From Lophium mytilinum (Eukaryota): a DNA stretch of 64,000 bases. The position numbers were made by a program, and so were the translations under genes. The notes beneath the pieces are model-generated. The model saw only the letters and a list, made by a program, of their open reading frames with translations. It searched no databases and had not been told where the DNA came from. Of the stretch, positions 48,559 through 64,000 are shown piece by piece. How positions within the stretch are numbered: position 1 is the first letter of the stretch; each line of letters opens with the position of its first letter. Location of the stretch: NCBI GenBank assembly GCA_010093605.1, contig MU004181.1:3038001-3102000 (forward strand), written 5' to 3'.

Positions 48559-49332
48559 ATGTTTCCCAAGGCCATTATCTCCGCCCTTGTGGCTATCTGC
48601 CTCCTGACCACTCAAACTGCGAGCTCGCCGCTACATCACCTAGAACCTCGAAATGATGGCTCGCAGGTTCTCGTCATGCAGCAGCCTGACAACAGCCTGC
48701 CGGGCCCCACAGGCCTCGTCCTGAAGTACATCCTTCTCGGAATAGGCACGCAGAATTACACCTGCGCCGCACCTGGATCCACAGCTGCTCCAGGCACTAC
48801 CGGAGCTACAGGTACAGTTTCTCCCTCTTATCCAACGCGACCCTGACACTCGTACTAACATTCCATAGCTACTCTCTACGACCTGGGCACCAAGCTTATC
48901 AGCGATCCTCTTGCCAAATGGAAGATCAACACCCTGTCCGGCCTCGCCCTCTCCATGTCATCGTACCCCCAGGTCCTAAGCGCCTTCCTCTCCGCGTCCG
49001 GCTACAACATAGTCGTCGGCAAACACTTCTTCTCTAGCGGAGGCGTCCCCACTTTCGCCCTTCAGAACATCCAAACGAAACCATTCCCTCAGGTCAATGG
49101 CAAGAAGAACGCCACCATGACTGCGCCAGCCTACTCTTGCCCGGGGAAGAGCAACGAAGGCGCTGTCCCTTGGCTCCAACTCATCGACGCTGGCGGATCT
49201 CAAGGCGGCGTCAACACAGTCTACCGCCTCGAGACTGCCGGAGGAAGCGCCCCCGCAACCTGCGCCGACGTCAAGACGACCACTTTCGAGGTTGCTTATG
49301 CCGCTCAGTATTGGATCTACGGGGCCGCTTGA
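48559..49332 (+). CDS. Secreted DUF3455-family protein
   Basis: Signal peptide, LGIGTQNYTC, ATLYD, GKHFF, AVPWLQL, VYRLETAGGSAPATC, YAAQYWIYG; intron about 48812-48868. Confidence 0.88.
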
Positions 49333-54214: not shown

Positions 54215-55149
54215 TCAGTATGGTCTCATGAGATCCACCTTCTCGTTAGCCTTGGACCTGGTCGCGTACTCCCGGACTGTCATATCGACCCAGGATACTC
54301 TCCGCTCTGGATCCGCTCCCTTCTCTAACAACCCTTTAGCCTCTTGCACTCTTCCCGGCTTAATTGTGCAGAATAGTGGCGTCCCCCATACCCCCTCCCC
54401 GGACCTTACCGCATCATCAACTGCATTTACATCCAGTCCGATGCCAACCAAGTACTCCATCATAGGAATCCTAGATCCGGGTGGGGCATCGAATCCAGCG
54501 CGAGCAGCGGAGTGAAGAGGGGACGCATTAGAGATATCTGCACCATGGGCAACAAGAAGGGCAAACATCTCCGGCGTGGAATAGGCTGCTGCAGCGTCGA
54601 GAGCGGCGCCAGAGTTCTGCATTGGACGGATCTCATATGAATGACGCTCTTGGGGACATAGTGGTGGACCTAGATTGGGGTTTGCGCCTTGCGATAGAAG
54701 ATACCGGACAAAGGCCTCGTCGTTACGTGCGACGACTGTACTGTGTACACGGTCAGCATATCATAGCGTATTGATGTGAATGAAGGTGCTTACGGAAGAA
54801 TAACATTGCCGAAAGGCCATGGATCATTTACACAAAACCCAAACTCGATCAGCAGTTTCACTGCTTCCACCGAATCTACATAATACATTGTCCCAGCATG
54901 CCACTTGACTCCGAGTTCTAGGAGGCAACGGGCTATGTCAAGCCGTCCCGCCTTGAAAGCATCGGTGAGTCCCCACGTAAGTGAGCCGTCGTTCCGGTCG
55001 CGGCCAGATGCTAGCTGCGAAACTACAGCTACGTCGCCCGTCTTCGACCGACAGGCTTCAAGGAAAGCAGGAAGGGATGGATCGGCTGGGTTGAGAACTC
55101 GAACCATTACTGCGCTGGGCTCTAGGCCCGGCGGCGGTGAATAAGGCAT
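54215..55149 (-). CDS. Ankyrin repeat protein
   Basis: AGRLDIARCLLELG, AVKLLIEFGFCVN, FVRYLLSQGANPN, SPLHSAA, GTPL..LLEKGADP; intron about 54742-54792. Confidence 0.85.
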
Positions 55150-56248
55150 CTTCAAGGGTATGAAAACAGCTTGAAGCAAGTTCAGAGGAGAGGTAGGTAT
55201 ATACTCCAACTTGAGGCCCAATCTTAAGACTGTGGTTTGGGCAGATGTGTTTGGGATGTGGCGGCACGATAGAAGTTGTACTTCCTCTGGACAAGGCCGT
55301 GGTGAATGATCCTATGCTATTTTCGTCCATCTGACTAGATTCCGATGGTTTGGGCCTTTGAGTTTCATCCCTCCGAGCCAAGGCGTCCCAAGTAACCCCT
55401 GTCAAACTTCCCGCCGCTAGAATAATCGCGGGTATTTAGAGCACCCCCTATTCCATTGGTGACCAGTTTGATACTTCTACCACATATCAAAACAGCCACA
55501 AATTTCGCCGAGCACTATATAATTGTATTCCTATGATCCAAGACTGAGGCAGATCTAGTGCTGGAGTCTCCACGGATCCGAACGGCAACTCTTGACGCTT
55601 TGTTCTATTCTAAGCGCCCTGGCGCCAGACATGCTGCAACAATGTTCGGTTCCCAGCGAATTCGAAACCCTAGACCCCACAAGGTACTTGGATATAAACA
55701 TCGGGCATATCTCTGGTAAGAGTGAACTACGGCGGTTCGGCTAAGAAAAGCAGCGCTACCCTACCGATTTCAGCGCTTAACTTCGAAAAACGCAAGGCTG
55801 CGGCGTGGGTTTCATTTCAAACACACAAGAAGGGAAAATCTACCCTACTTGGTTGGCTGAATGTGCCAAGGGACCCACCCATAAAGGATGCTTTTTGTGG
55901 GTATGTTATGCAGCGGTTAAACCAAAGAAAGGCAAGGCTGTATATTGCGACGTTGGTTAGATTCTAAAGACTCGATTGGTGAAAATCCAACCTTCTTAGT
56001 TGGTTGACTGTACCACAGGACCTACCCGCCAATGCCACCCCAAACATCGAGGCAAGTCTGCTGGCATATCTTTCGTCGGGATTGCGGCGTATGACTAGCA
56101 ATATTAGGCAGGGCTGCGGCGTAGGTTTGATTTCGAGAATTTATTTATGCATAGGACGATAATCTATACCTACTGCCCTTTGGGACTGAAAGTCCTGCGG
56201 ACCTTTAATATGTCTTTCGTACCCCTTCATATATGTTGAAGTATATGA

Positions 56249-56320
56249 CTTTCGTTCATCACATTCGTTTCGTTTATCACATCCGTTTCGTTCATCACAT
56301 CCGTTTCGTTCATCACGTCC
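56249..56320. repeat. 18-bp minisatellite, about 4 copies, in the 5' leader of the secreted-protein gene
   Basis: TTTCGTTCATCACAT(T/C)CG repeated directly after TATA-like TATATG elements. Confidence 0.85.
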
Positions 56321-56396
56321 CGAGCATATTGACCCCTACGTCTTCATCACTCTTTTCACATTCGTTCATACAATGGCAACGAGACCTCACTTTACC

Positions 56397-59300
56397 ATGA
56401 AGGCGTACTTGTTCATTCTTTTACAAAGTTATTTGGTCCTTGTCTCAGCACAAACTGCTAGCGGAACAGGAACGGCTGTCATCACCAATGGAATACCAAG
56501 ACCGCCGCCCATTTTACCTTTATATCCTATCCCTATAAATAGTACCGGAATACTGGGAGGAACCGGACCAGGAGTGACTCCAAGCACATCGCAACCCAAA
56601 ACGACGTTTTCGTCGGGAACTGCTGCAGGCACGAGCTCATCAGCTTTAGTCGCAGTCCCGTTCTCATTAAGTTCAGCGTCAGTCACTACCTCTTCAGTGA
56701 ACGGACCGTTAGATACTACATCCGCCCCGACCGAGAGCACGAACAGTTTTCCGATCTCGAGCTCTTCCATTTTATTATCTCCCGATTCAAGCGAAAGTGT
56801 GTCTTCTTCGTCGAGCTTGCAATCAACCATAGCAACTGAGCCTACGACCACACCTACTGCCACCGCGATTACGTCTTCGAGAACCGGATCAATTACCGCA
56901 GCTCCCTCAAGTACGAACATTATTCTGCCATCTGGAATTATCCTCACACCAGCCACTGCCGTCCTTGGTACGACAGGCACTGAGATTAAGACCAGCGCTT
57001 CAGACCTCTCAAGCTTGATAATAGGCATATTCCCAATTATTCAACAATGGATCGATGACCCCGGACATCAGCCTCCTAAAGTCACGGCAGTAACGGACGG
57101 GCTCAACAATATACTTCCTAGAGCATCCGAGTTCTTGAATAGGCTACCGAAACCCACCGATCCGATTGAACCATGTCAAAAAGGATCATCGAGGCGTTCA
57201 CTTCAAAAGAGGTCATTCCTTGACGGCTTGTTCAAATCGGTATTCAATCTAGTCACTTGTGTTGTTGACGACGGAAATAAGCTGAAAGACGGCATTACCG
57301 AGGGAGTTGAGGACACTGTGAAGACACTTACGAATGACTTAAGACCGATGATTGATGCTCTTAACAAAGTTGACCCTGGCGACGACTCCGACCCGTCTGC
57401 CTCAGTATCTAGTCAGCAGAGCTCTTCCCGGCAGTCTTCGTCCTCGTCGTCCTCCTCCTGCAGCTTGGAGACCGTAAGCAATTGTCAAATTGCTTGCACA
57501 GCAACAGCAATCACGACAGTAGGCGGAGCTAATATAGGAGCGGATGGCGAAGCATGTAGAACAATCTGCAGAATGTTGGACTGAAAAACCCCAAACAATA
57601 TCGGATGAGACAAGCTGTTTGAGACAAACCCATCTGTAGCCTATATCAGAAGAATCAACCCCCTCCTAACGGAGGGTATGGGTTTCCGAATTTCAACATG
57701 GTAGCTCAGATGGTTATTCACCAATTTGCCGGGGCCCATCCACCCTATCAGGGGGTGTAAAACATCTGCTCACCACCCACAGCTATTCACCACTTGCGCC
57801 TATCCACCACTCGCTATTGTACCGTGGCCGACCAGATGAATCCAAGCAGCTGTATCCGACACCTAGGGCAGATGAATCCGTTTCCCACGAGCCTGAGAGC
57901 CGTGATGAGAGCCTGTACCTGGAATCGTTTGAGAACCGTCTGCAGAGAGCCTGCCGGAGCGGATGGTGCGAAGGAAGGGAGGATACGGAGGACAAGGAAG
58001 AGAGAATGGGGCGGCATTTACTAGACAAGAAGGCTGTTTATTACGGAAGGAGGTCAGCATTTACCATCGAGAAGGGGGCCAAGAGTATCGTTTGTGGTTT
58101 TCTGGGGGAGTGTTGGACTGAAAAACCCCAAACAATATCGGATGAGACAAGCTGTTTGAGACAAACCCATCTGTAGCCTATATCAGAAGAATCAACCCCC
58201 TCCTAACGGAGGGTATGGGTTTCCGAATTTCAACACAGAACACCTATCACAGCGTGTAGTGCTACTGCGGTAACATCAGTGTTTACGTCTACTGTAACAT
58301 CTACCTCTTCAGGATTTCAGATATGCTCCCCCGGTTGCTCAGAATGTGCACATAATAAGGCGCCACCACAGCCCACGGGCATCAACCTCTCAGGCGTAAT
58401 GACGGCGTCTAACGGTCACCTTTTCCTTCCCCCGGAGACCTCACTACCCGCGGATGAAACTCTCGCAGCCCGTGGTACGTATCCAAAAGAAACCAGCACC
58501 CCAGGCCAAGGACCTTCCAAGAGAGCACTCTTCAATCCCAAAGATGCGCTTTTCAGTAACGTGAAGGACTTCATTCTATTTCAACTCGTTATGGCAACTA
58601 TTCTTGACCACGGCGAAACCGCCAGTGTCTGCTCGACTGCTATGACTTATACCTTAACAGACGTTCCGGATCTCTGGGCAGTGGTTAATCTTTACGGCTG
58701 CACATCCGTTATTGTGGTCTCCCGAAAGCGAATATGGATGTCGCACTTTTGGGAGGGCCCTTCCTTCCTACAGCCCAACAACTTCCGTCCGGAAGTTCTC
58801 GATGCAATGCGCAACGGCGGTGCAGGCATCCAGCAAGGAATTGCCGCATTCACAGGCCCCGGTGGCGATTTCGAAAACACACCAGAGAACAAAGTCCGTG
58901 CCTTCATTGTCACGCCGTATCGGCGTGGTGAATTTAATCCGGCACACGATGATTGGCAATTTCCGTCTGAAATTGGAAAAATGAGAGATGTATTGCACGA
59001 CATCTTAGGAAGGGAAGACGAATTGATGTACGTTCTACCCAAACTTACTACCTAGGTTAATGCTAATTCACCAAAAGCATTCCATATATTACCCGAGGGC
59101 GCGACCCGGGAGTCCCTGGTGCTCCTGGCTTTTACACCATGCCTTACGGTAAGGTCATAGTCCAATATGACCCTTTGCAAGCGCGTATGCAGGGGCCTGG
59201 GGGTGCCAGTTGCAAAGGGCCCAGCTCGAGGTACTGAGAGCCCTTCCCTACCAGTATTAGTGAAGCTACATATCGGATACTTATTGCACTTTACCTTTGT

Positions 59301-59936
59301 AGATATGGGTCGAAGATAACCCACAGTATCGATACCGGGATTACTGGCAAGCTTTGCCAAACCAGGTTGTGCCGCTACCACTTTCTCAGTCTGGCCAAAT
59401 GAAGCGAGTGCTTCCATCACCTCCACTTACGGAGGTAGATGAGGATGACTGGGAAGAATTTCGTGAACCGCTCAAGCGGCAAGATGGTGGCTCTTGTCCT
59501 CTAGCCAATAGTGCTCTTTCCGCATCTAGTTCTGTCTCTGCCGCTGAAACAGCATCCAGCCAGGCCGTAGAGCCGACGACAGCACAGACCGGAGATCCTA
59601 CGACACTACAAACCAAAGACCCGACAACACTCCAGACCGTCACTGTCTCGAACTCCATCTCAACAGCTCCTAGTCCGCCTTCACCAGCGACTGAGCCTCC
59701 ACCAGCACTAGATCCGGCCCCCTCGCCTTCTTCACTGCCAGCATATTCTTGTAAACCGCCGTAAGTTGTACAAAGCTATACTAAAGGAAAATATATTAAC
59801 AAACGCTAGCCTTGACGAACCCTCCGCAACTCGGTGTTTATGTTACCCAGTGAATTGTGTCAAGCTTTGCGAAGGAGTAGAACTGAAAAAGGGTGAGAAT
59901 GGGTGTGATGATCAATGCAATGGATGTCAGGTTTGA
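56397..59936 (+). pseudogene. Secreted multi-domain precursor (Ser/Thr-rich, Kex2 sites, LYGC..H deamidase-like domain, Cys-rich tail), disrupted by TRIM insertion
   Basis: Signal MKAYLFILLQSYLVLVSA; removing 57574-58240 restores TICRTPITACSATAV in frame with ORF 58279; three 3' introns; apparent frameshift in a G5 run at 59199-59203; ends ..GCDDQCNGCQV*. Confidence 0.8.
57574..58235 (+). mobile_element. TRIM (terminal-repeat retrotransposon in miniature), 662 bp, non-autonomous
   Basis: Identical 125-bp LTRs 57574-57698 and 58111-58235 with TGTTG..CAACA ends, PBS-like TGGTAGCT at 57699, PPT GGGGGAG at 58104-58110, 5-bp TSD CAGAA (57569-57573 and 58236-58240), 412-bp interior without recognisable gag/pol. 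Confidence 0.95.
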
Positions 59937-60298
59937 GTTGAGTAGGGGAGCTGCAAAACGAAGGGCTTGACTCCTAGGAGGTATTGATAGGGATGTATTA
60001 GTATTGTACACATAGGAAGTGGTAAGCAAGGGAGCGCGGAGGTGCATCGGAAGGCACTACGGTTCGAGACTTAGGACCCGGAAACTGGAACATAGTGAGA
60101 CTACCATCTCAAAAGGCAGGGGGATAGCACAATGCTCAGACAGGTCTGGGGGCTCAGACTTGCTGTGATTAGTTTTGAGGGTGGAATTGAATAGTAATGA
60201 TTTGAAGTCATAACTTCAACCTATCTTATCTGCTATCAATGATGCTGCCTGCCCAAACCATGCTCTGCCTCAGCTCATAGAGTATCCAATGCCCACCC

Positions 60299-60350
60299 GC
60301 TGATCTGTTGAAGCCAACACCTGCTGATCTGTCGAAGCCAATATGCTGAT
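60299..60350. repeat. 24-bp tandem duplication downstream of the MYND gene
   Basis: GCTGATCTGTTGAAGCCAACACCT / GCTGATCTGTCGAAGCCAATAT, then GCTGAT. Confidence 0.75.
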
Positions 60351-60492: not shown

Positions 60493-62592
60493 TTAGACAT
60501 CATAGGGAGACAGCACGTCCTCCCATCCTTTCTTCTCCTTGTAGAGCTCCCAGAACTTTCTGAAGACTCTCCTCTCGATGAAACTCAAGATGGCGGCTTC
60601 GTTCATTTCAGCTTGCCCCCCACGGTACTTTTCGAATTCGGTCAAAAGCACTACCATCTCCCGTGACCCAACGATATCCTCCGGTCTACTCCAATCAACC
60701 TCATCATATCCACCGAGGTGTTGTGCGTGTGGGAGGATTACGAAACGCGCGAAGGCAGCAATGGCCTCGACATGTTCTGGCAGCAGCGGCTTCCCATCGC
60801 TACGAGCGAGGAAGACAGAGCCAGGACACGTCTGATATAGCTCTGCTTTCATAGCCACATCAATATCGTTACTAGTGAGTTTGTTGTTAAGGCGCCGGGT
60901 ATTGAAGTGAAGGAATGAGACCAAAGGGTTGCGGGATGCGGCAACAGTCCACGCGCGATCCGGAGCCACCTGCCAAGTGCGTATTGGGATTTCAAGACGA
61001 TTGGTGAAGGAAGGTTTGACGCTAGTACGATTGATGCCGTCAGAGGTATATAAGTCGGCGATACGCGGCAGTTCCGTTGTTCGTACCCACTTCCCCTGAG
61101 GATGGAGGCGGGGAAGGAGGATCTTGCGAGCGGAGGCGGTCCCTCTGATCAGGCGTTCGCCATCGCAGTCTATGCAGACAGCTTCGACCCTCCCAGTACG
61201 TGGTGCTTGTTTTGGTGGTCCCTCTTCTGTGAATGCAAGCCATGCGTCGTTCTGGAGATCGGACACGGATAGTGCGTCAACAACGTAACGATAATCCGAG
61301 GGTTCCAGATCGCGGAGAGACCCATCGCATAGAGTAGCGCACACAACGACGGAGCCTACCCAGCGGAGTGGACTCAGGTAGGCGGTTGCAATGGATATGC
61401 ATTTGTTGGCTGAGGAAGAGTCTGTAATGGAGGGTGCTCGGTAAAATATAGTGAGGTCGTCATGCAACTCGCGGCCTAAGATGCCATTCCGGGAAATAGT
61501 CGCTGTCATAATGCCGCTACCTATCTCTGCCGTGCTGAGACCCGAGGAACGCCCCAGGAGATTCAAATGTATCGCGATCTTTGGGTCATGGCCGCCTTGT
61601 AACCAGATCCAACGTGGTCGGTCGCTCTTAGCTGACATCAAAATTGCACGGTAAGGCTTCGAGGTAGGTCGGAAGTGGCCGGTATAGAGACTGAACGTTC
61701 TGCAAAGCGCTTCATGTGTTGGGAGGTCTTCCAGCTCGCACTCTGAGCTGCAGTAACGTATGCCCTGGCAATTCTTGCAGGGAACCCCAGGGGCAGAACA
61801 GAGGGCGCAGAGGGCATCTGAGCTAACCTGTTCTGTCTCGGTTTTCGAAGCCTCAGGATTGAAGGTTTCTGTTTGGGCTTTGATAGCGTTGATCCCCTGC
61901 TCCTGCTTCAGTCCAATAGGATTCTTGGAGTTCATGTGCTCTATGTTCTCGCCACCGTGAATACGGTTATCCAATGACCATCTGGCTTTGAACTCCAATT
62001 TCTTCTTCACAGAAAAGCTGTAAAAAGATGGTTTTGCGAGGACATCGTTTTCCGCAAGTGGGTGTTTCGCGTTCTTCTCGCCACCGTGAACATGGTTTTT
62101 TAAGGTCCATGCTGCCTTGAACTCCGGGTTCGTCTTCCCAGAGAAGCCGTAAGTAGATGTGCTTGCGAGAACATCGTTTTCCGCAGGGTGGTGTTTCGCG
62201 TTCTTCTCGGACTGCATCATAGGCTTAGGTTCGCTGGGTATGACAGAGTCAACGGACATAGTATCACTCCCAGAGTCGTCGTTCTTTTCCATCTTGGTAT
62301 CGATTCGAACTGAATTGACCTGAGCGGGTGTGACTTCCGTAGTGTCTACTAGAGTGTTGACTTGAGCAGTGTCACGCTGAGCGGCGTCGACTGAAGGTTG
62401 AGGAGGAAGTCGAGGTATCACCACCTGCGGTGAAGGTCCGCGGCGTGGATTTCTAGGATCGGCGTCAAGGGGACCGCTGGGCGAAGTGAATGGCAACTTT
62501 CTCTTTCTGTCTTTGGTTCCGGATCTGAGGTTATCCGCAACCTTACGCTCGTCGCCGGCGCTGAAGCTGTTGTTATCCTCAGCCTCTACCAT
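60493..62592 (-). CDS. MYND zinc-finger protein
   Basis: CALC..CKNCQGIRYCSSECELEDLPTHEALC, GSVFLARSDGKPLLPEHVEA, C-terminal SPYDV; intronless, 699 aa. Confidence 0.85.
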   Translation of the reverse strand: MVEAEDNNSFSAGDERKVADNLRSGTKDRKRKLPFTSPSGPLDADPRNPRRGPSPQVVIPRLPPQPSVDAAQRDTAQVNTLVDTTEVTPAQVNSVRIDTKMEKNDDSGSDTMSVDSVIPSEPKPMMQSEKNAKHHPAENDVLASTSTYGFSGKTNPEFKAAWTLKNHVHGGEKNAKHPLAENDVLAKPSFYSFSVKKKLEFKARWSLDNRIHGGENIEHMNSKNPIGLKQEQGINAIKAQTETFNPEASKTETEQVSSDALCALCSAPGVPCKNCQGIRYCSSECELEDLPTHEALCRTFSLYTGHFRPTSKPYRAILMSAKSDRPRWIWLQGGHDPKIAIHLNLLGRSSGLSTAEIGSGIMTATISRNGILGRELHDDLTIFYRAPSITDSSSANKCISIATAYLSPLRWVGSVVVCATLCDGSLRDLEPSDYRYVVDALSVSDLQNDAWLAFTEEGPPKQAPRTGRVEAVCIDCDGERLIRGTASARKILLPRLHPQGKWVRTTELPRIADLYTSDGINRTSVKPSFTNRLEIPIRTWQVAPDRAWTVAASRNPLVSFLHFNTRRLNNKLTSNDIDVAMKAELYQTCPGSVFLARSDGKPLLPEHVEAIAAFARFVILPHAQHLGGYDEVDWSRPEDIVGSREMVVLLTEFEKYRGGQAEMNEAAILSFIERRVFRKFWELYKEKKGWEDVLSPYDV

Positions 62593-63226
62593 GATGCTTG
62601 GTTGACTGTTGATTGTAGAAGGTTGAAGGACTACTAGTCGTCCAAGAGTTGGAGAAGTAGAAGTGAAATAGTCAAATCAAGCAGTTACGTGAGCGGTACT
62701 TGGTGTAGTTCGATTCAAGTGAGGAAATATGAACACTCATCCCTAATATGAGATTGGCCTGACCCCAGGAATAGGCCAGTGAACGGTGTCAAGGTAACCT
62801 AGAAGTTTCAGAACGGGCGGGACGTTACTTCACAAGACCTGTCGAGGAAACGCCCTGTTTGACGACCAGATACGTAATCACCGAAAGTGCTTGATAGCAA
62901 GCTGATCATGGTAAGAATGTAGAACAGGAGTAACTCGAAATCTTTTAGTCTTAATTGACTTTTATGACGAGAAAAGCCGTATCCATGAGCTTGAAGCTCG
63001 ATAGCGCCTACCTCTATGCTGGTCATATACGCCCGATGACCATCGAGGGCCGTTACGCATTCCTTGTCATACCGCCATGCCTCTGTCCTATGTACCGCCT
63101 CATAATCGTAACCAGCTAATCCAAGCCCTACCCCTTGCTCGCCTATAAGGAGAATAAAGGTAAAGGGAAGCTACTAGTTACATACCTTCTGATGCAGAGT
63201 ACTGGAGATCAAAGTACCTGGAGATT

Positions 63227-64000
63227 CTACGCATCTGCCTCGACAACTCCACCCTCGTCGCTCGCGCTCTCGTCTTCGTCACCGCTGATCTCCTCGTTCT
63301 CGCGAGCTCGCTTCTCCATCAATGCCTGCAGTTCTGCGTCATCGTTTTCGGTAACTGCCTTGGGCGCCATCTTGACGATGAGGTTACCACCAGCTTTTGT
63401 GATGTTCTCCTCAATTTCCTTGATAGCATCTGTGAGAGTGGTGATGCCGACATTCTTGTCGAGACATTGGCTAGTCTGTGGCACGCTCGTTAGATGGTTG
63501 TTTCAACGAGGCCAGGGGTGTGATGGGTCATAGAGAGCAAAGTCCGAATACTTACCAAGACATATAGGGGCGGGCTGACGAGCTTGACTTTAACATGGTT
63601 GTCTGGCGTATTCTTGGCTTCTGCGCAGCGGAGAGCAGTTTTGACGGCGTCGATGCCTTCGTAGCCAAAGCATGTGACCTCAACATCGGAGCGGACCTTG
63701 GTTGGTTGAGGCGTCAATCGCTTTCCTATGTAGCTTTGTAGCTCGTCCTTGACTACGTCATTGGTGAATTCGCTAGAAGAGATTAGCGTTAATATCAACA
63801 CTTCGTAGCGGAAGTACTCACATGCCGGACCACACTTCTGGGTTCGTGATGGACTAATTGCAAGGTTAACACTACAGTTTATAGCAATCTATAAGGACAA
63901 AGTCGCTCACGAGCTTGAACGCATCAACTGCGTGGCCGTACTTCTTGTTGAGTGGCCATCCAATGGTAGAGTAAAGCTCCTCAATCGGGGTGTTCGTCTT
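63227..64000 (-). CDS. SUI2: Translation initiation factor eIF2 alpha, 3' part
   Basis: IGWPLNKKYGHAVDAFKLS|ITNP, KRLTPQPTKVRSDVEVTCFGYEGIDAVK, KLVSPPLYV, PKAVTENDDAELQALM; gene runs off the window end. Confidence 0.96.

What the first reader, a model, noticed from the sequence alone, without database searches (positions are those of the whole stretch)
58525..59480. Secreted Kex2-released domain with a CNF1/BLF1-type deamidase signature: candidate fungal toxin family
Seen: between dibasic sites PSKR and PLKR lies a globular domain with VNLYGCTSVIVVSRKRIWMSHFWE (Cys codon 58699, His codon 58744, 15 residues apart). The precursor has a signal peptide, Ser/Thr stalks, an amphipathic helical region after LQKR, a Cys-rich linker and an 8-Cys C-terminal module. 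Established: E. coli CNF1 uses LSGC Cys866 with His881 (same spacing), and BLF1 shares the LSGC motif. Inference: a modular secreted glutamine-deamidase-like effector or antimicrobial toxin; I know of no characterised fungal example.
Basis: partly seen in the sequence, partly recalled or inferred. Interest (0 to 1): 0.8.

Follow-up and report, generated by a model that had tools for sequence, protein, structure and literature searches.

The report
Fungal secreted CNF1/CheD-like hydrolase, interrupted
A fungal gene for a large secreted protein carries an unnamed enzyme-like domain that folds like bacterial deamidase toxins and the chemotaxis deamidase CheD, but this copy is broken by a small jumping element and a frameshift.

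Summary
The domain belongs to a family with no Pfam model: 336 relatives at E<=0.001, and every named one is a Pezizomycotina "hypothetical protein". In 178 aligned stretches Cys is kept in 161 of 163 and His in 164 of 168. An AlphaFold2 model of the closest homologue's domain (pLDDT 93.1) matches only the CNF1/YfiH-like cysteine hydrolases: CheD Z 9.1, NTAN1 8.4, BLF1 8.3, CNF1 8.1, CNFy 7.7, YlmD 6.8, YfiH 6.0, then a drop to 4.0. Foldseek's first 11 rows are the same group. The Cys sits in an L-x-G-C loop, as in CNF1 and BLF1. A [KR]R site lies 56-64 residues before the Cys across the family. So the fold reading and the Kex2 reading are supported; a toxin role is untested. A 662-bp LTR element with identical 125-nt LTRs and a 5-bp target duplication sits in the coding sequence at 57574-58235 and brings a stop after four codons. 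The frame also slips by one base in the domain's second exon. Verdict: a decayed copy of a new fungal family within a known enzyme superfamily.

The parts
56373..57573 (+). First coding part of the gene. It holds the start codon (ATG 56373 or 56397), a signal-peptide-like stretch, a Ser/Thr-rich stalk, a four-helix module (about 56982-57370) with LQKR at 57201-57212 in the loop between helices 2 and 3, a Ser run, and the first half of the Cys-rich linker.
   Evidence: The ORF 56190-57584 is open. tblastn places P0002 residues 220-456, P0006 residues 1-189 and P0004 residues 147-390 here. The AlphaFold2 model of 56982-57473 has helices 2-25, 31-54, 81-107 and 110-129, pLDDT 70.7. A contig of run X1 covers 56376-56535.
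57569..57573 (+). Left copy of the 5-bp target-site duplication, CAGAA.
   Evidence: Read directly from the sequence. The same five bases stand at 58236-58240.
57574..58235 (+). A 662-bp non-autonomous LTR element (TRIM-like) inserted in the coding sequence. The 5' LTR is 57574-57698 and the 3' LTR is 58111-58235. The internal part is 57699-58110; it starts with TGG (primer-binding-site-like) and ends with a purine run before the 3' LTR.
   Evidence: A direct repeat with 537-bp spacing. The LTRs are 125 of 125 identical, and the window has no other copy. Their ends are TGTTG...CAACA. Pfam finds nothing in the internal ORF. LTR pieces from other copies stand at depth 86-380 in run X1. Homologous proteins run straight across the insertion point.
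58236..58524 (+). The coding sequence resumes here: right copy of the target duplication (58236-58240), second half of the Cys-rich linker, a spacer, and the dibasic site PSKR (58513-58524).
   Evidence: ORF 58207-59055. tblastn places P0006 residues 191-453 at 58240-59025. A [KR]R site at this relative position is found in 72 of 107 family stretches, against 23% of control windows.
58525..59027 (+). Exon part 1 of the hydrolase-like domain. It holds the L-Y-G-C loop (Cys codon 58699-58701), the invariant Ser (58720-58722), His (58744-58746) and Glu (58753-58755).
   Evidence: Translation, conservation counts, the model of the homologous domain and the fold matches.
59028..59077 (+). A 50-nt intron, GTACGT...AG.
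   Evidence: Read from the sequence. The tblastn pieces on either side end at 59025 and start at 59070.
59078..59230 (+). Exon part 2 of the domain. The frame shifts by one base within about 59186-59203, a stretch with two G runs.
   Evidence: One frame gives ...GKVIVQYDPLQARMQG.... The next frame gives ...WGCQLQRAQLE, and 6 of the 9 residues from its Cys onward equal P0002's. tblastn puts the two homologous pieces in different frames, although the intron between them is 72 nt long.
59231..59302 (+). A 72-nt intron, GTACTG...TAG.
   Evidence: Read from the sequence. The flanking homology ends with ...QLE and restarts with IWVED....
59303..59760 (+). The end of the domain (IWVEDNPQYRYRDYWQALPNQ, to about 59365), a tail with the dibasic sites MKR and PLKR (PLKR ends at 59479), then a Ser/Thr/Pro-rich spacer.
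   Evidence: Translation. tblastn places P0002 residues 754-861 here.
59761..59809 (+). A 49-nt intron, GTAAGT...AG.
   Evidence: A contig of run X1 joins 59760 to 59810 with GT..AG ends.
59810..59936 (+). The last exon: a short Cys-rich tail with 7 Cys, ending at the stop codon 59934-59936.
   Evidence: ORF listing. X1 contigs cover 59605-59760 joined to 59810, and 59836-60000.

Best explanation
The window holds a decayed copy of a Pezizomycotina gene for a large secreted modular glycoprotein precursor. The intact form would run: signal peptide, Ser/Thr stalk, a four-helix module split by a Kex2 site, a Cys-rich linker, a Kex2 site, a roughly 240-residue enzyme-like domain, a further Kex2 site, a Ser/Thr/Pro spacer and a Cys-rich tail. 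The domain founds a fungal family that has no name. [quoted passage not shown] A near-invariant Cys sits on an L-x-G-C loop, and a near-invariant His lies 15 residues on, at the far end of the same beta-hairpin. The most likely chemistry (inferred, not shown) is attack by the Cys thiolate on a side-chain amide of Gln or Asn. That gives a thioester, which is resolved by water (deamidation) or by another nucleophile (transamidation). The enzyme would act outside the cell after Kex2 has cut it free; its target is unknown. In this genome the gene is disabled. A 662-bp LTR element sits in the linker-coding sequence and brings a stop after four codons, and the domain's second exon has a one-base frame slip.
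For: Fold: the AlphaFold2 model of the P0002 domain (67% identical to the window's exon) has pLDDT 93.1 and pTM 0.91. VIA-align against 48,161 chains puts CheD at Z 9.1, NTAN1 8.4, BLF1 8.3, CNF1 8.1, CNFy 7.7 (two entries), YlmD 6.8 and YfiH 6.0; the next chain scores 4.0. The first 11 Foldseek rows are the same superfamily, with probability 0.99 for CheD and CNFy. Active-site pattern: Cys 161 of 163, His 164 of 168, Gly before the Cys 161 of 163, Leu/aliphatic three before it 161 of 163, Ser67 159 of 162, Glu78 156 of 167. Cys59 of the model lies in the loop 54-59, just before strand 60-65, and His74 lies in strand 69-75. The literature describes an L-S-G-C loop carrying the nucleophile in BLF1 and CNF1 (PMC8960835 passages). 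It also gives Cys-to-His spacings of 17 in CheD and NTAN1 (PMC7022378 passages). Secretion and processing: signal-peptide-like starts in the window and in full-length homologues. A [KR]R site stands 56-64 residues before the Cys in the family: 72 of 107 stretches against 398 of 1732 control windows. The Kex2 motif itself is taken from PMC8528282 passages. Family range: 336 hits at E<=0.001. All named hits are Pezizomycotina hypothetical proteins, and four classes were checked. Decay: identical LTRs, TG..CA ends and a CAGAA duplication. Homologues are collinear across the site: P0006 residues 189 and 191 flank it. The frame slip is shown.
Against: No sequence method links the family to any known member. 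Pfam gave nothing at E<=10 for 57 members. The PDB profile search gave only two unrelated weak hits. hhalign against E. coli YfiH gave probability 0.1%. Foldseek TM-scores are low (0.33 or less, rmsd 8-9 A), and only 1 row has E<=0.001. The tool's own note says Z 7-8 is a typical best score even for models without a clear relative. I could not obtain coordinates, so the Cys-His contact and its superposition on the known dyads are inferred from hairpin geometry only. The Ser/Thr found six residues before the Cys in CheD and NTAN1 is an aliphatic residue here (155 of 158). A free catalytic Cys on a secreted protein is unusual. No activity, substrate or expression data exist. The frame slip lies in G runs and could be a sequencing error.
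Confidence: 0.65

Rival explanations
1. The family is a delivered toxin or effector: a killer-toxin-like preprotoxin cut by Kex2 into parts. The CNF1/BLF1-like domain would enter a competitor's or a host's cell and deamidate a cytosolic target such as a GTPase or a translation factor.
For: The structural neighbours that share the L-x-G-C loop are toxins, CNF1/CNFy and BLF1. The multi-part precursor has conserved dibasic sites. Most close homologues carry a further Cys-containing C-terminal domain of about 145 residues that could bind cells (15 of 155 hits). Family members occur in plant pathogens such as Parastagonospora nodorum and Cercospora. The comparison with yeast killer preprotoxins is recalled, not tested.
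Against: No translocation or receptor-binding module was recognised. The four-helix module matches only generic bundles: no Foldseek row at E<=0.001. The family is also in lichen-forming fungi and in saprobes. CheD and NTAN1, which are not toxins, score as high or higher than the toxins. Long Ser/Thr stalks are typical of wall or surface glycoproteins (recalled). This genome tolerates loss of the gene.
Confidence: 0.2
2. The domain is a wall-building transamidase. It uses the same thioester chemistry to couple Gln side chains of surface glycoproteins to amines or to glucan hydroxyls, rather than to water.
For: The protein has a secreted, heavily Ser/Thr-rich architecture. One multi-domain homologue, P0020, carries a PIR wall-protein repeat (1 of 59 scanned). 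Transglutaminase chemistry in this fold, and Gln-derived ester links of PIR proteins to glucan, are recalled from the literature and were not checked here.
Against: There is only a single PIR hit. No family member was seen in budding yeasts, where PIR linkage is known; all named hits are Pezizomycotina. No data bear on acyl acceptors.
Confidence: 0.15
3. The domain is a YfiH/YlmD-type enzyme that acts on small molecules or on peptidoglycan fragments, for example an antibacterial or scavenging amidase, and not on proteins.
For: YlmD and YfiH are among the eight matches above the gap, at Z 6.8 and 6.0.
Against: They are the weakest of the eight. In the 57-sequence domain alignment only one His reaches 90% conservation, so the His-Cys-His metal site of YfiH (recalled, with a zinc site mentioned in PMC7022378 passages) is not there. 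hhalign against E. coli YfiH gave probability 0.1%.
Confidence: 0.07
4. The domain is not an enzyme. Cys and His are kept for structural reasons, and the protein is a structural surface glycoprotein.
For: No activity data exist, and the third triad residue was not identified.
Against: Near-invariance of Gly-Cys-Thr, Ser, His and Glu across relatives only 30-40% identical overall is typical of an active site. The placement equals that of the known dyads.
Confidence: 0.05

Closest known systems
CheD, the chemoreceptor glutamine deamidase (Thermotoga maritima, PDB 2F9Z)
   Same: It is the best structural match: VIA Z 9.1 over 144 residues, and Foldseek rank 1 with probability 0.99. It has a Cys then a His across a beta-hairpin (Cys27/His44, PMC7022378 passages).
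   Different: Identity is 12-13%, and neither Pfam nor HMMER links them. CheD is a small cytoplasmic bacterial protein with Thr21 as third triad member. Here the equivalent position is aliphatic, the Cys-His spacing is 15 rather than 17, and the protein is secreted and fungal.
The catalytic domains of CNF1 and CNFy, and BLF1 (bacterial glutamine-deamidase toxins)
   Same: The fold matches (Z 8.1, 7.7 and 8.3). The nucleophile loop is L-x-G-C, against L-S-G-C in CNF1 and BLF1.
   Different: There is no detectable sequence relation. Those toxins come from bacteria and act in the host cytosol after delivery by dedicated domains or systems. Here no delivery module is recognised, and the domain is released in the secretory pathway at a dibasic site.
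NTAN1, the N-terminal asparagine amidohydrolase of animals and plants (PDB 6A0E)
   Same: The fold matches (Z 8.4). It is a eukaryotic member of the same superfamily with a Cys75/His92/Ser69 triad.
   Different: NTAN1 is cytosolic and has an appended C-terminal region that selects N-terminal Asn. Identity is 8% and the context is different.
YfiH/PgeF and YlmD (DUF152, relatives of FAMIN)
   Same: Same superfamily fold (Z 6.0-6.8).
   Different: There is no second conserved His for a metal site, and these are the lowest scores in the group.
Kex2-processed fungal precursors (K2PP effectors; killer preprotoxins)
   Same: A signal peptide is followed by dibasic sites with an aliphatic residue or Pro at P4: SLQKR, GPSKR, EPLKR. 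This fits the Kex2 motif described in PMC8528282. The site in front of the domain is conserved across the family.
   Different: The precursor is far larger and releases a folded enzyme-like domain, not a small effector or peptide. Cleavage itself is not shown.

Membership tests
CNF1/YfiH-like cysteine hydrolase superfamily | An alpha-beta-beta sandwich fold shared by CNF1, BLF1, CheD, NTAN1 and YfiH | tested here: met
   The model has pLDDT 93.1. All 8 chains with Z>=6 belong to this group and the next chain scores 4.0. Foldseek rows 1-11 are all from this group. Caveat: the TM-scores are low.
CNF1/YfiH-like cysteine hydrolase superfamily | A nucleophilic Cys on a short loop leading into a beta-strand (L-S-G-C in CNF1 and BLF1) | tested here: met
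   L-[YFW]-G-C lies in the loop 54-59 before strand 60-65. Cys is kept in 161 of 163, Gly in 161 of 163 and Leu/aliphatic in 161 of 163. The motif is as described in PMC8960835.
CNF1/YfiH-like cysteine hydrolase superfamily | A catalytic His 12-17 residues after the Cys, on the neighbouring strand | tested here: met
   His lies 15 residues on, in strand 69-75, and is kept in 164 of 168.
CNF1/YfiH-like cysteine hydrolase superfamily | Cys and His in contact and superposable on the known dyads | not testable with these tools
   No coordinates or residue-level structural alignment are returned. Closeness is inferred only from the two strands forming a hairpin with a 3-residue turn.
CNF1/YfiH-like cysteine hydrolase superfamily | A third triad member: Ser/Thr six residues before the Cys (CheD, NTAN1, BLF1) or a backbone carbonyl (CNF1) | tested here: inconclusive
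   Position -6 is aliphatic in 155 of 158, so the Ser/Thr form is absent. A CNF1-like backbone contact, or the invariant Ser67 or Glu78, could serve instead; this cannot be judged without coordinates.
CNF1/YfiH-like cysteine hydrolase superfamily | Amidohydrolase activity | not testable with these tools
   This needs an enzyme assay.
Pfam/sequence families CheD, CNF1 and DUF152 (membership by sequence) | A significant match to the family's profile | tested here: not met
   Pfam found 0 families for the window ORFs at E<=1. No family was shared by more than 1 of 57 members at E<=10. The PDB profile search gave no superfamily member at E<=10. hhalign against E. coli YfiH gave probability 0.1%.
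YfiH/DUF152 branch | A His-Cys-His metal-binding site | tested here: not met
   Only one His reaches 90% conservation in the 57-sequence domain alignment.
Kex2-processed secreted precursor | A secretory signal plus a dibasic site (P1 Arg, P2 Lys/Arg, P4 aliphatic or Pro) bounding the released part | tested here: met
   The sites are SLQKR, GPSKR and EPLKR. A [KR]R site is found in 72 of 107 family stretches against 23% of control windows, peaking 56-64 residues before the Cys. The motif follows PMC8528282. Actual cleavage was not tested.
LTR retrotransposon, non-autonomous (TRIM-like) | Two direct terminal repeats with TG..CA ends, a short target-site duplication, a TGG start after the 5' LTR, a purine tract before the 3' LTR, and no gag/pol | tested here: met
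   The LTRs are 125 nt and 125 of 125 identical, with TGTTG...CAACA ends and CAGAA on both sides. Pfam finds nothing in the internal ORF. Other copies stand at high depth in run X1. No matching tRNA is in the window, so the primer site is only a resemblance.

The most novel reading that the evidence does not exclude
This unnamed Pezizomycotina family may be the first eukaryotic secreted branch of the CNF1/CheD deamidase fold with a role of its own. One option is the catalytic part of an AB-like fungal preprotoxin that deamidates a target inside competitor or host cells. The other is the long-sought extracellular enzyme that couples Gln side chains of fungal surface proteins to the wall.
Probability: 0.2. 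Interest if true: 0.85.

Novelty: new variant of a known kind. Interest (0 to 1): 0.6.

Why it matters
Cys-His deamidases of the CNF1 fold are known as bacterial toxins, a bacterial chemotaxis enzyme and a cytosolic N-degron enzyme. A widespread secreted fungal branch has not been described: it has hundreds of members, some with two to four domain copies per protein, and occurs in crop pathogens, lichen fungi and Aspergillus. It has no Pfam model. The invariant residues give a direct handle for experiments, namely a Cys-to-Ala control and a mass shift of +0.98 Da. The conserved Kex2 site defines the mature N-terminus to express. The broken copy in this window also shows that the gene is dispensable in at least one lineage, and it documents a very recent insertion by a small LTR element.

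Tried and rejected
- The window's own genome is not held, so copy number and other element copies could not be searched.
- No RNA holder was listed for the gene. The single run X1 is only guessed to be RNA. Its contigs cover about a fifth of the stretch and none crosses either element junction or the frame-slip site. Whether transcripts keep the element is therefore open.
- A cryptic GT...AG pair spanning almost the whole element would keep the frame. I set it aside because the donor is far from the usual fungal consensus (recalled) and no contig shows such a joint.
- No canonical GT-AG intron can join the two frames in exon 2. I checked every GT in 59185-59260 by hand against the acceptor at 59302. 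A GC-AG alternative would delete the conserved Cys-x8 strand.
- Sequence links to known families all failed: Pfam, the PDB profile search and hhalign against E. coli YfiH.
- The ESM Atlas gave only unnamed Ascomycota clusters for the domain and nothing usable for the homologues' C-terminal domain.
- The four-helix module gave only generic bundle matches.
- Rfam and ARAGORN found nothing in or near the element.
- Earlier findings of the scan held nothing.
- My crude signal-peptide rule flagged 15 of 120 hits, but it is too strict and most database entries are fragments, so I do not use that count.
- I did not run complex prediction, because I make no binding claim.
Full report
**What is in the sequence**

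The + strand between 56373 and 59936 carries one multi-exon fungal gene. Cys is at codon 58699 and His at codon 58744, 15 residues apart, and PSKR ends at 58524, exactly as stated. PLKR ends at 59479.

- a signal-peptide-like start;
- Ser/Thr-rich stretches;
- a helical region around LQKR;
- a Cys-rich linker.

Downstream there is a Ser/Thr/Pro spacer and a last exon with seven Cys. I place introns at 59028-59077, 59231-59302 and 59761-59809. A contig of public run X1 shows the last one spliced out with GT..AG ends. That also suggests the run, listed only as a guessed RNA run, does hold cDNA.

**The gene is not intact here**

*The LTR element.* A 128-nt direct repeat with 537-bp spacing resolves into two 125-nt LTRs at 57574-57698 and 58111-58235. 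They are identical in 125 of 125 bases.
- They begin TGTTG and end CAACA.
- The internal 412 bp start with TGG and end in a purine run.
- The five bases CAGAA stand on both sides, at 57569-57573 and 58236-58240.

This is the signature of a small non-autonomous LTR element, and identical LTRs mean a recent insertion. Its internal ORF has no Pfam match. The window holds no other copy. In run X1, however, pieces of the LTR from other copies stand at depth 86-380, against about 3 for the gene.

The element lies inside coding sequence. P0006 residues 1-189 align up to 57569 and residues 191-453 align from 58240. P0004 behaves the same way. The open frame runs into the LTR and stops after four codons (RMLD*).

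*The frame slip.* In the domain's second exon, one frame reads ...GKVIVQYDPLQARMQG.... The conserved continuation ...WGCQLQRAQLE is in the next frame and leads over the 72-nt intron into IWVEDNPQYRYRDYW. P0002 reads GKVLVQYDPVQALVQVEGQCDRQIAQLEIWVEDNPLYRYRDYW. tblastn places the two pieces in different frames although the intron length is a multiple of three. The slip lies within 59186-59203, in G runs, so it may be a real mutation or a homopolymer sequencing error. No contig of X1 covers it.

**The family**

The exon-encoded 168 residues find 336 proteins at E<=0.001, 75 at E<=1e-10 and 11 at E<=1e-30 among 1.84 billion representatives. The closest is a 921-residue hypothetical protein of Lojkania enalia, 66-67% identical.

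Every hit that carries a name is a Pezizomycotina "hypothetical" or "uncharacterized" protein. The genera named are:
- Lojkania, Neocucurbitaria, Dendryphion, Parastagonospora, Amniculicola, Lophiotrema, Dothidotthia, Setomelanomma, Alternaria;
- Zasmidium, Cercospora, Saccharata;
- Heterodermia, Psora, Physcia, Xylographa;
- Sclerophora;
- Aspergillus.

I checked four classes in the taxonomy: Dothideomycetes, Coniocybomycetes, Lecanoromycetes and Eurotiomycetes.

Pfam finds nothing in the window's ORFs. It finds nothing in 58 of 59 hits; the one exception is a PIR repeat elsewhere in P0020. No family recurs among 57 members even at E<=10.

Architectures vary. There are single-domain secreted proteins of 300-340 residues, and proteins of 1300-2600 residues with two to four matched stretches. 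The window's own architecture is also found in others: its four-helix module is in 16 of 155 hits. A C-terminal Cys-containing domain of about 145 residues is in 15 of 155 hits but not in the window.

**Conservation**

The counts come from 178 aligned stretches, counting non-gap cells.

| Position | Kept in |
|---|---|
| Cys | 161 of 163 |
| Gly before the Cys | 161 of 163 |
| Thr/Ser after the Cys | 161 of 163 |
| Leu/aliphatic three before the Cys | 161 of 163 |
| Ser67 | 159 of 162 |
| His | 164 of 168 |
| Trp/aromatic two after the His | 163 of 167 |
| Glu78 | 156 of 167 |
| Position six before the Cys, aliphatic | 155 of 158 |

**Fold**

I aligned the full domain of P0002 (242 residues, an unchanged part of the stored protein) with 56 relatives. 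AlphaFold2 gave pLDDT 93.1 and pTM 0.91. Cys59 ends the loop 54-59 and leads into strand 60-65. After a three-residue turn, strand 69-75 carries His74.

VIA-align against 48,161 representative chains gave the following.

| Chain | Z |
|---|---|
| CheD | 9.1 |
| NTAN1 | 8.4 |
| BLF1 | 8.3 |
| CNF1 | 8.1 |
| CNFy (two entries) | 7.7 |
| YlmD | 6.8 |
| YfiH | 6.0 |
| next chain | 4.0 |

Foldseek's first 11 rows are CheD, CNFy, CNF1, DUF152, NTAN1 and BLF1, with probability 0.99 for the first two.

There are caveats. Only one Foldseek row has E<=0.001, TM-scores are about 0.33, and Z 7-8 alone is not rare. The argument rests on three things together: all eight top chains belong to one superfamily, there is a clear gap below them, and the active-site pattern coincides.

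That pattern is described in the literature. [quoted passage not shown] I could not get coordinates. The contact of Cys59 and His74, and their superposition on the known dyads, are therefore inferred from the hairpin and not measured.

**Processing**

A [KR]R pair stands 85 to 35 residues before the Cys in 72 of 107 stretches that have enough upstream sequence. It occurs in 398 of 1732 control windows of the same proteins. The offsets peak at 56-64 residues, and the site is usually followed by A/S/T-L-x-x-P.

The window's three sites, SLQKR, GPSKR and EPLKR, fit the Kex2 preference for P1 Arg, P2 Lys/Arg and P4 Leu, another aliphatic residue or Pro (passages of PMC8528282).

The N-terminal module of the window models as four helices, with the LQKR site in the disordered loop between helices 2 and 3 (pLDDT 70.7). 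It matches only generic four-helix bundles.

**How it most likely works**

Shown by computation:
- membership of the fold;
- the conserved Cys/His pattern;
- the secretory features;
- the conserved dibasic site;
- the two lesions.

Inferred: the mature domain is released by Kex2 and acts outside the cell as a Cys-His amidohydrolase on side-chain amides of Gln or Asn, or transfers the acyl group to another nucleophile.

Among the superfamily's branches, the deamidase branch (CheD, NTAN1, BLF1, CNF1) scores above the YfiH/YlmD branch. The L-x-G-C loop is of the CNF1/BLF1 kind. A second conserved His for a YfiH-type metal site is absent.

The biological role is open. It could be toxin or effector, wall cross-linking, or release of nitrogen. 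I rank a delivered toxin at about 0.2, for two reasons. No delivery module was recognised. The family is also present in lichen fungi and saprobes.

**Novelty**

Four full-text searches combined deamidase, CNF1, CheD, CNF1-like or YfiH-like with fungal terms, and glutamine deamidase with fungus, secreted and Kex2. Their listings showed no paper describing a fungal member. I saw only the listings of those searches, and ranking may hide papers.

I rate this a new variant of a known kind: a new, sequence-isolated, secreted fungal family inside the known CNF1/YfiH-like superfamily.

**Surroundings**

The neighbouring genes show no evident link to this one:
- an ankyrin-repeat ORF at 54215-54760 on the - strand;
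- a MYND-finger protein at 60493-62676 on the - strand;
- a DUF3455 ORF at 48859-49332 on the + strand;
- an eIF2-alpha fragment at 63490-63888 on the - strand.

Noticed in passing
window 56232-56320: Four head-to-tail copies of an 18-nt unit (TTTCGTTCATCACATCCG-like) stand just upstream of the gene's start codon. They may be a promoter or 5' UTR repeat.
   Followed up: no
window 60294-60341: A tandem pair of a 24-nt unit, 92% identical, lies in the spacer between this gene and the MYND-finger gene.
   Followed up: no
window 60493-62676 (-): A long ORF of 727 residues has a MYND zinc finger (E 6.3e-07) at residues 290-325. It converges on the studied gene.
   Followed up: no
window 57699-58110: The internal part of the LTR element is one open frame of 168 codons that runs from the first LTR into the second (ORF 57670-58176), with no Pfam match. 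In run X1 its two ends stand at high depth, from other copies. Its middle (57955-58105) appears only at depth 2.6 with no differences, the same depth as the gene's exons.
   Followed up: partly
homologues P0004, P0010, P0011, P0013 and others (C-terminal 145 residues): Most close homologues end in a conserved Cys-containing domain of about 145 residues (15 of 155 hits). The window and the Lojkania protein lack it: tblastn against the window gave no hit below E 0.4. It has no Pfam match and no Atlas lead. Its fold was not predicted.
   Followed up: partly
window 54215-54760 (-), 48859-49332 (+), 63490-63888 (-): Neighbouring ORFs match ankyrin repeats, DUF3455 and eIF2-alpha. This looks like an ordinary gene-dense region.
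   Followed up: no
hits P0026, P0028, P0048, P0061, P0074, P0085, P0093: Some family members carry two to four matched stretches of the domain in one protein of 600-2600 residues, for example in Zasmidium, Cercospora and Aspergillus.
   Followed up: no
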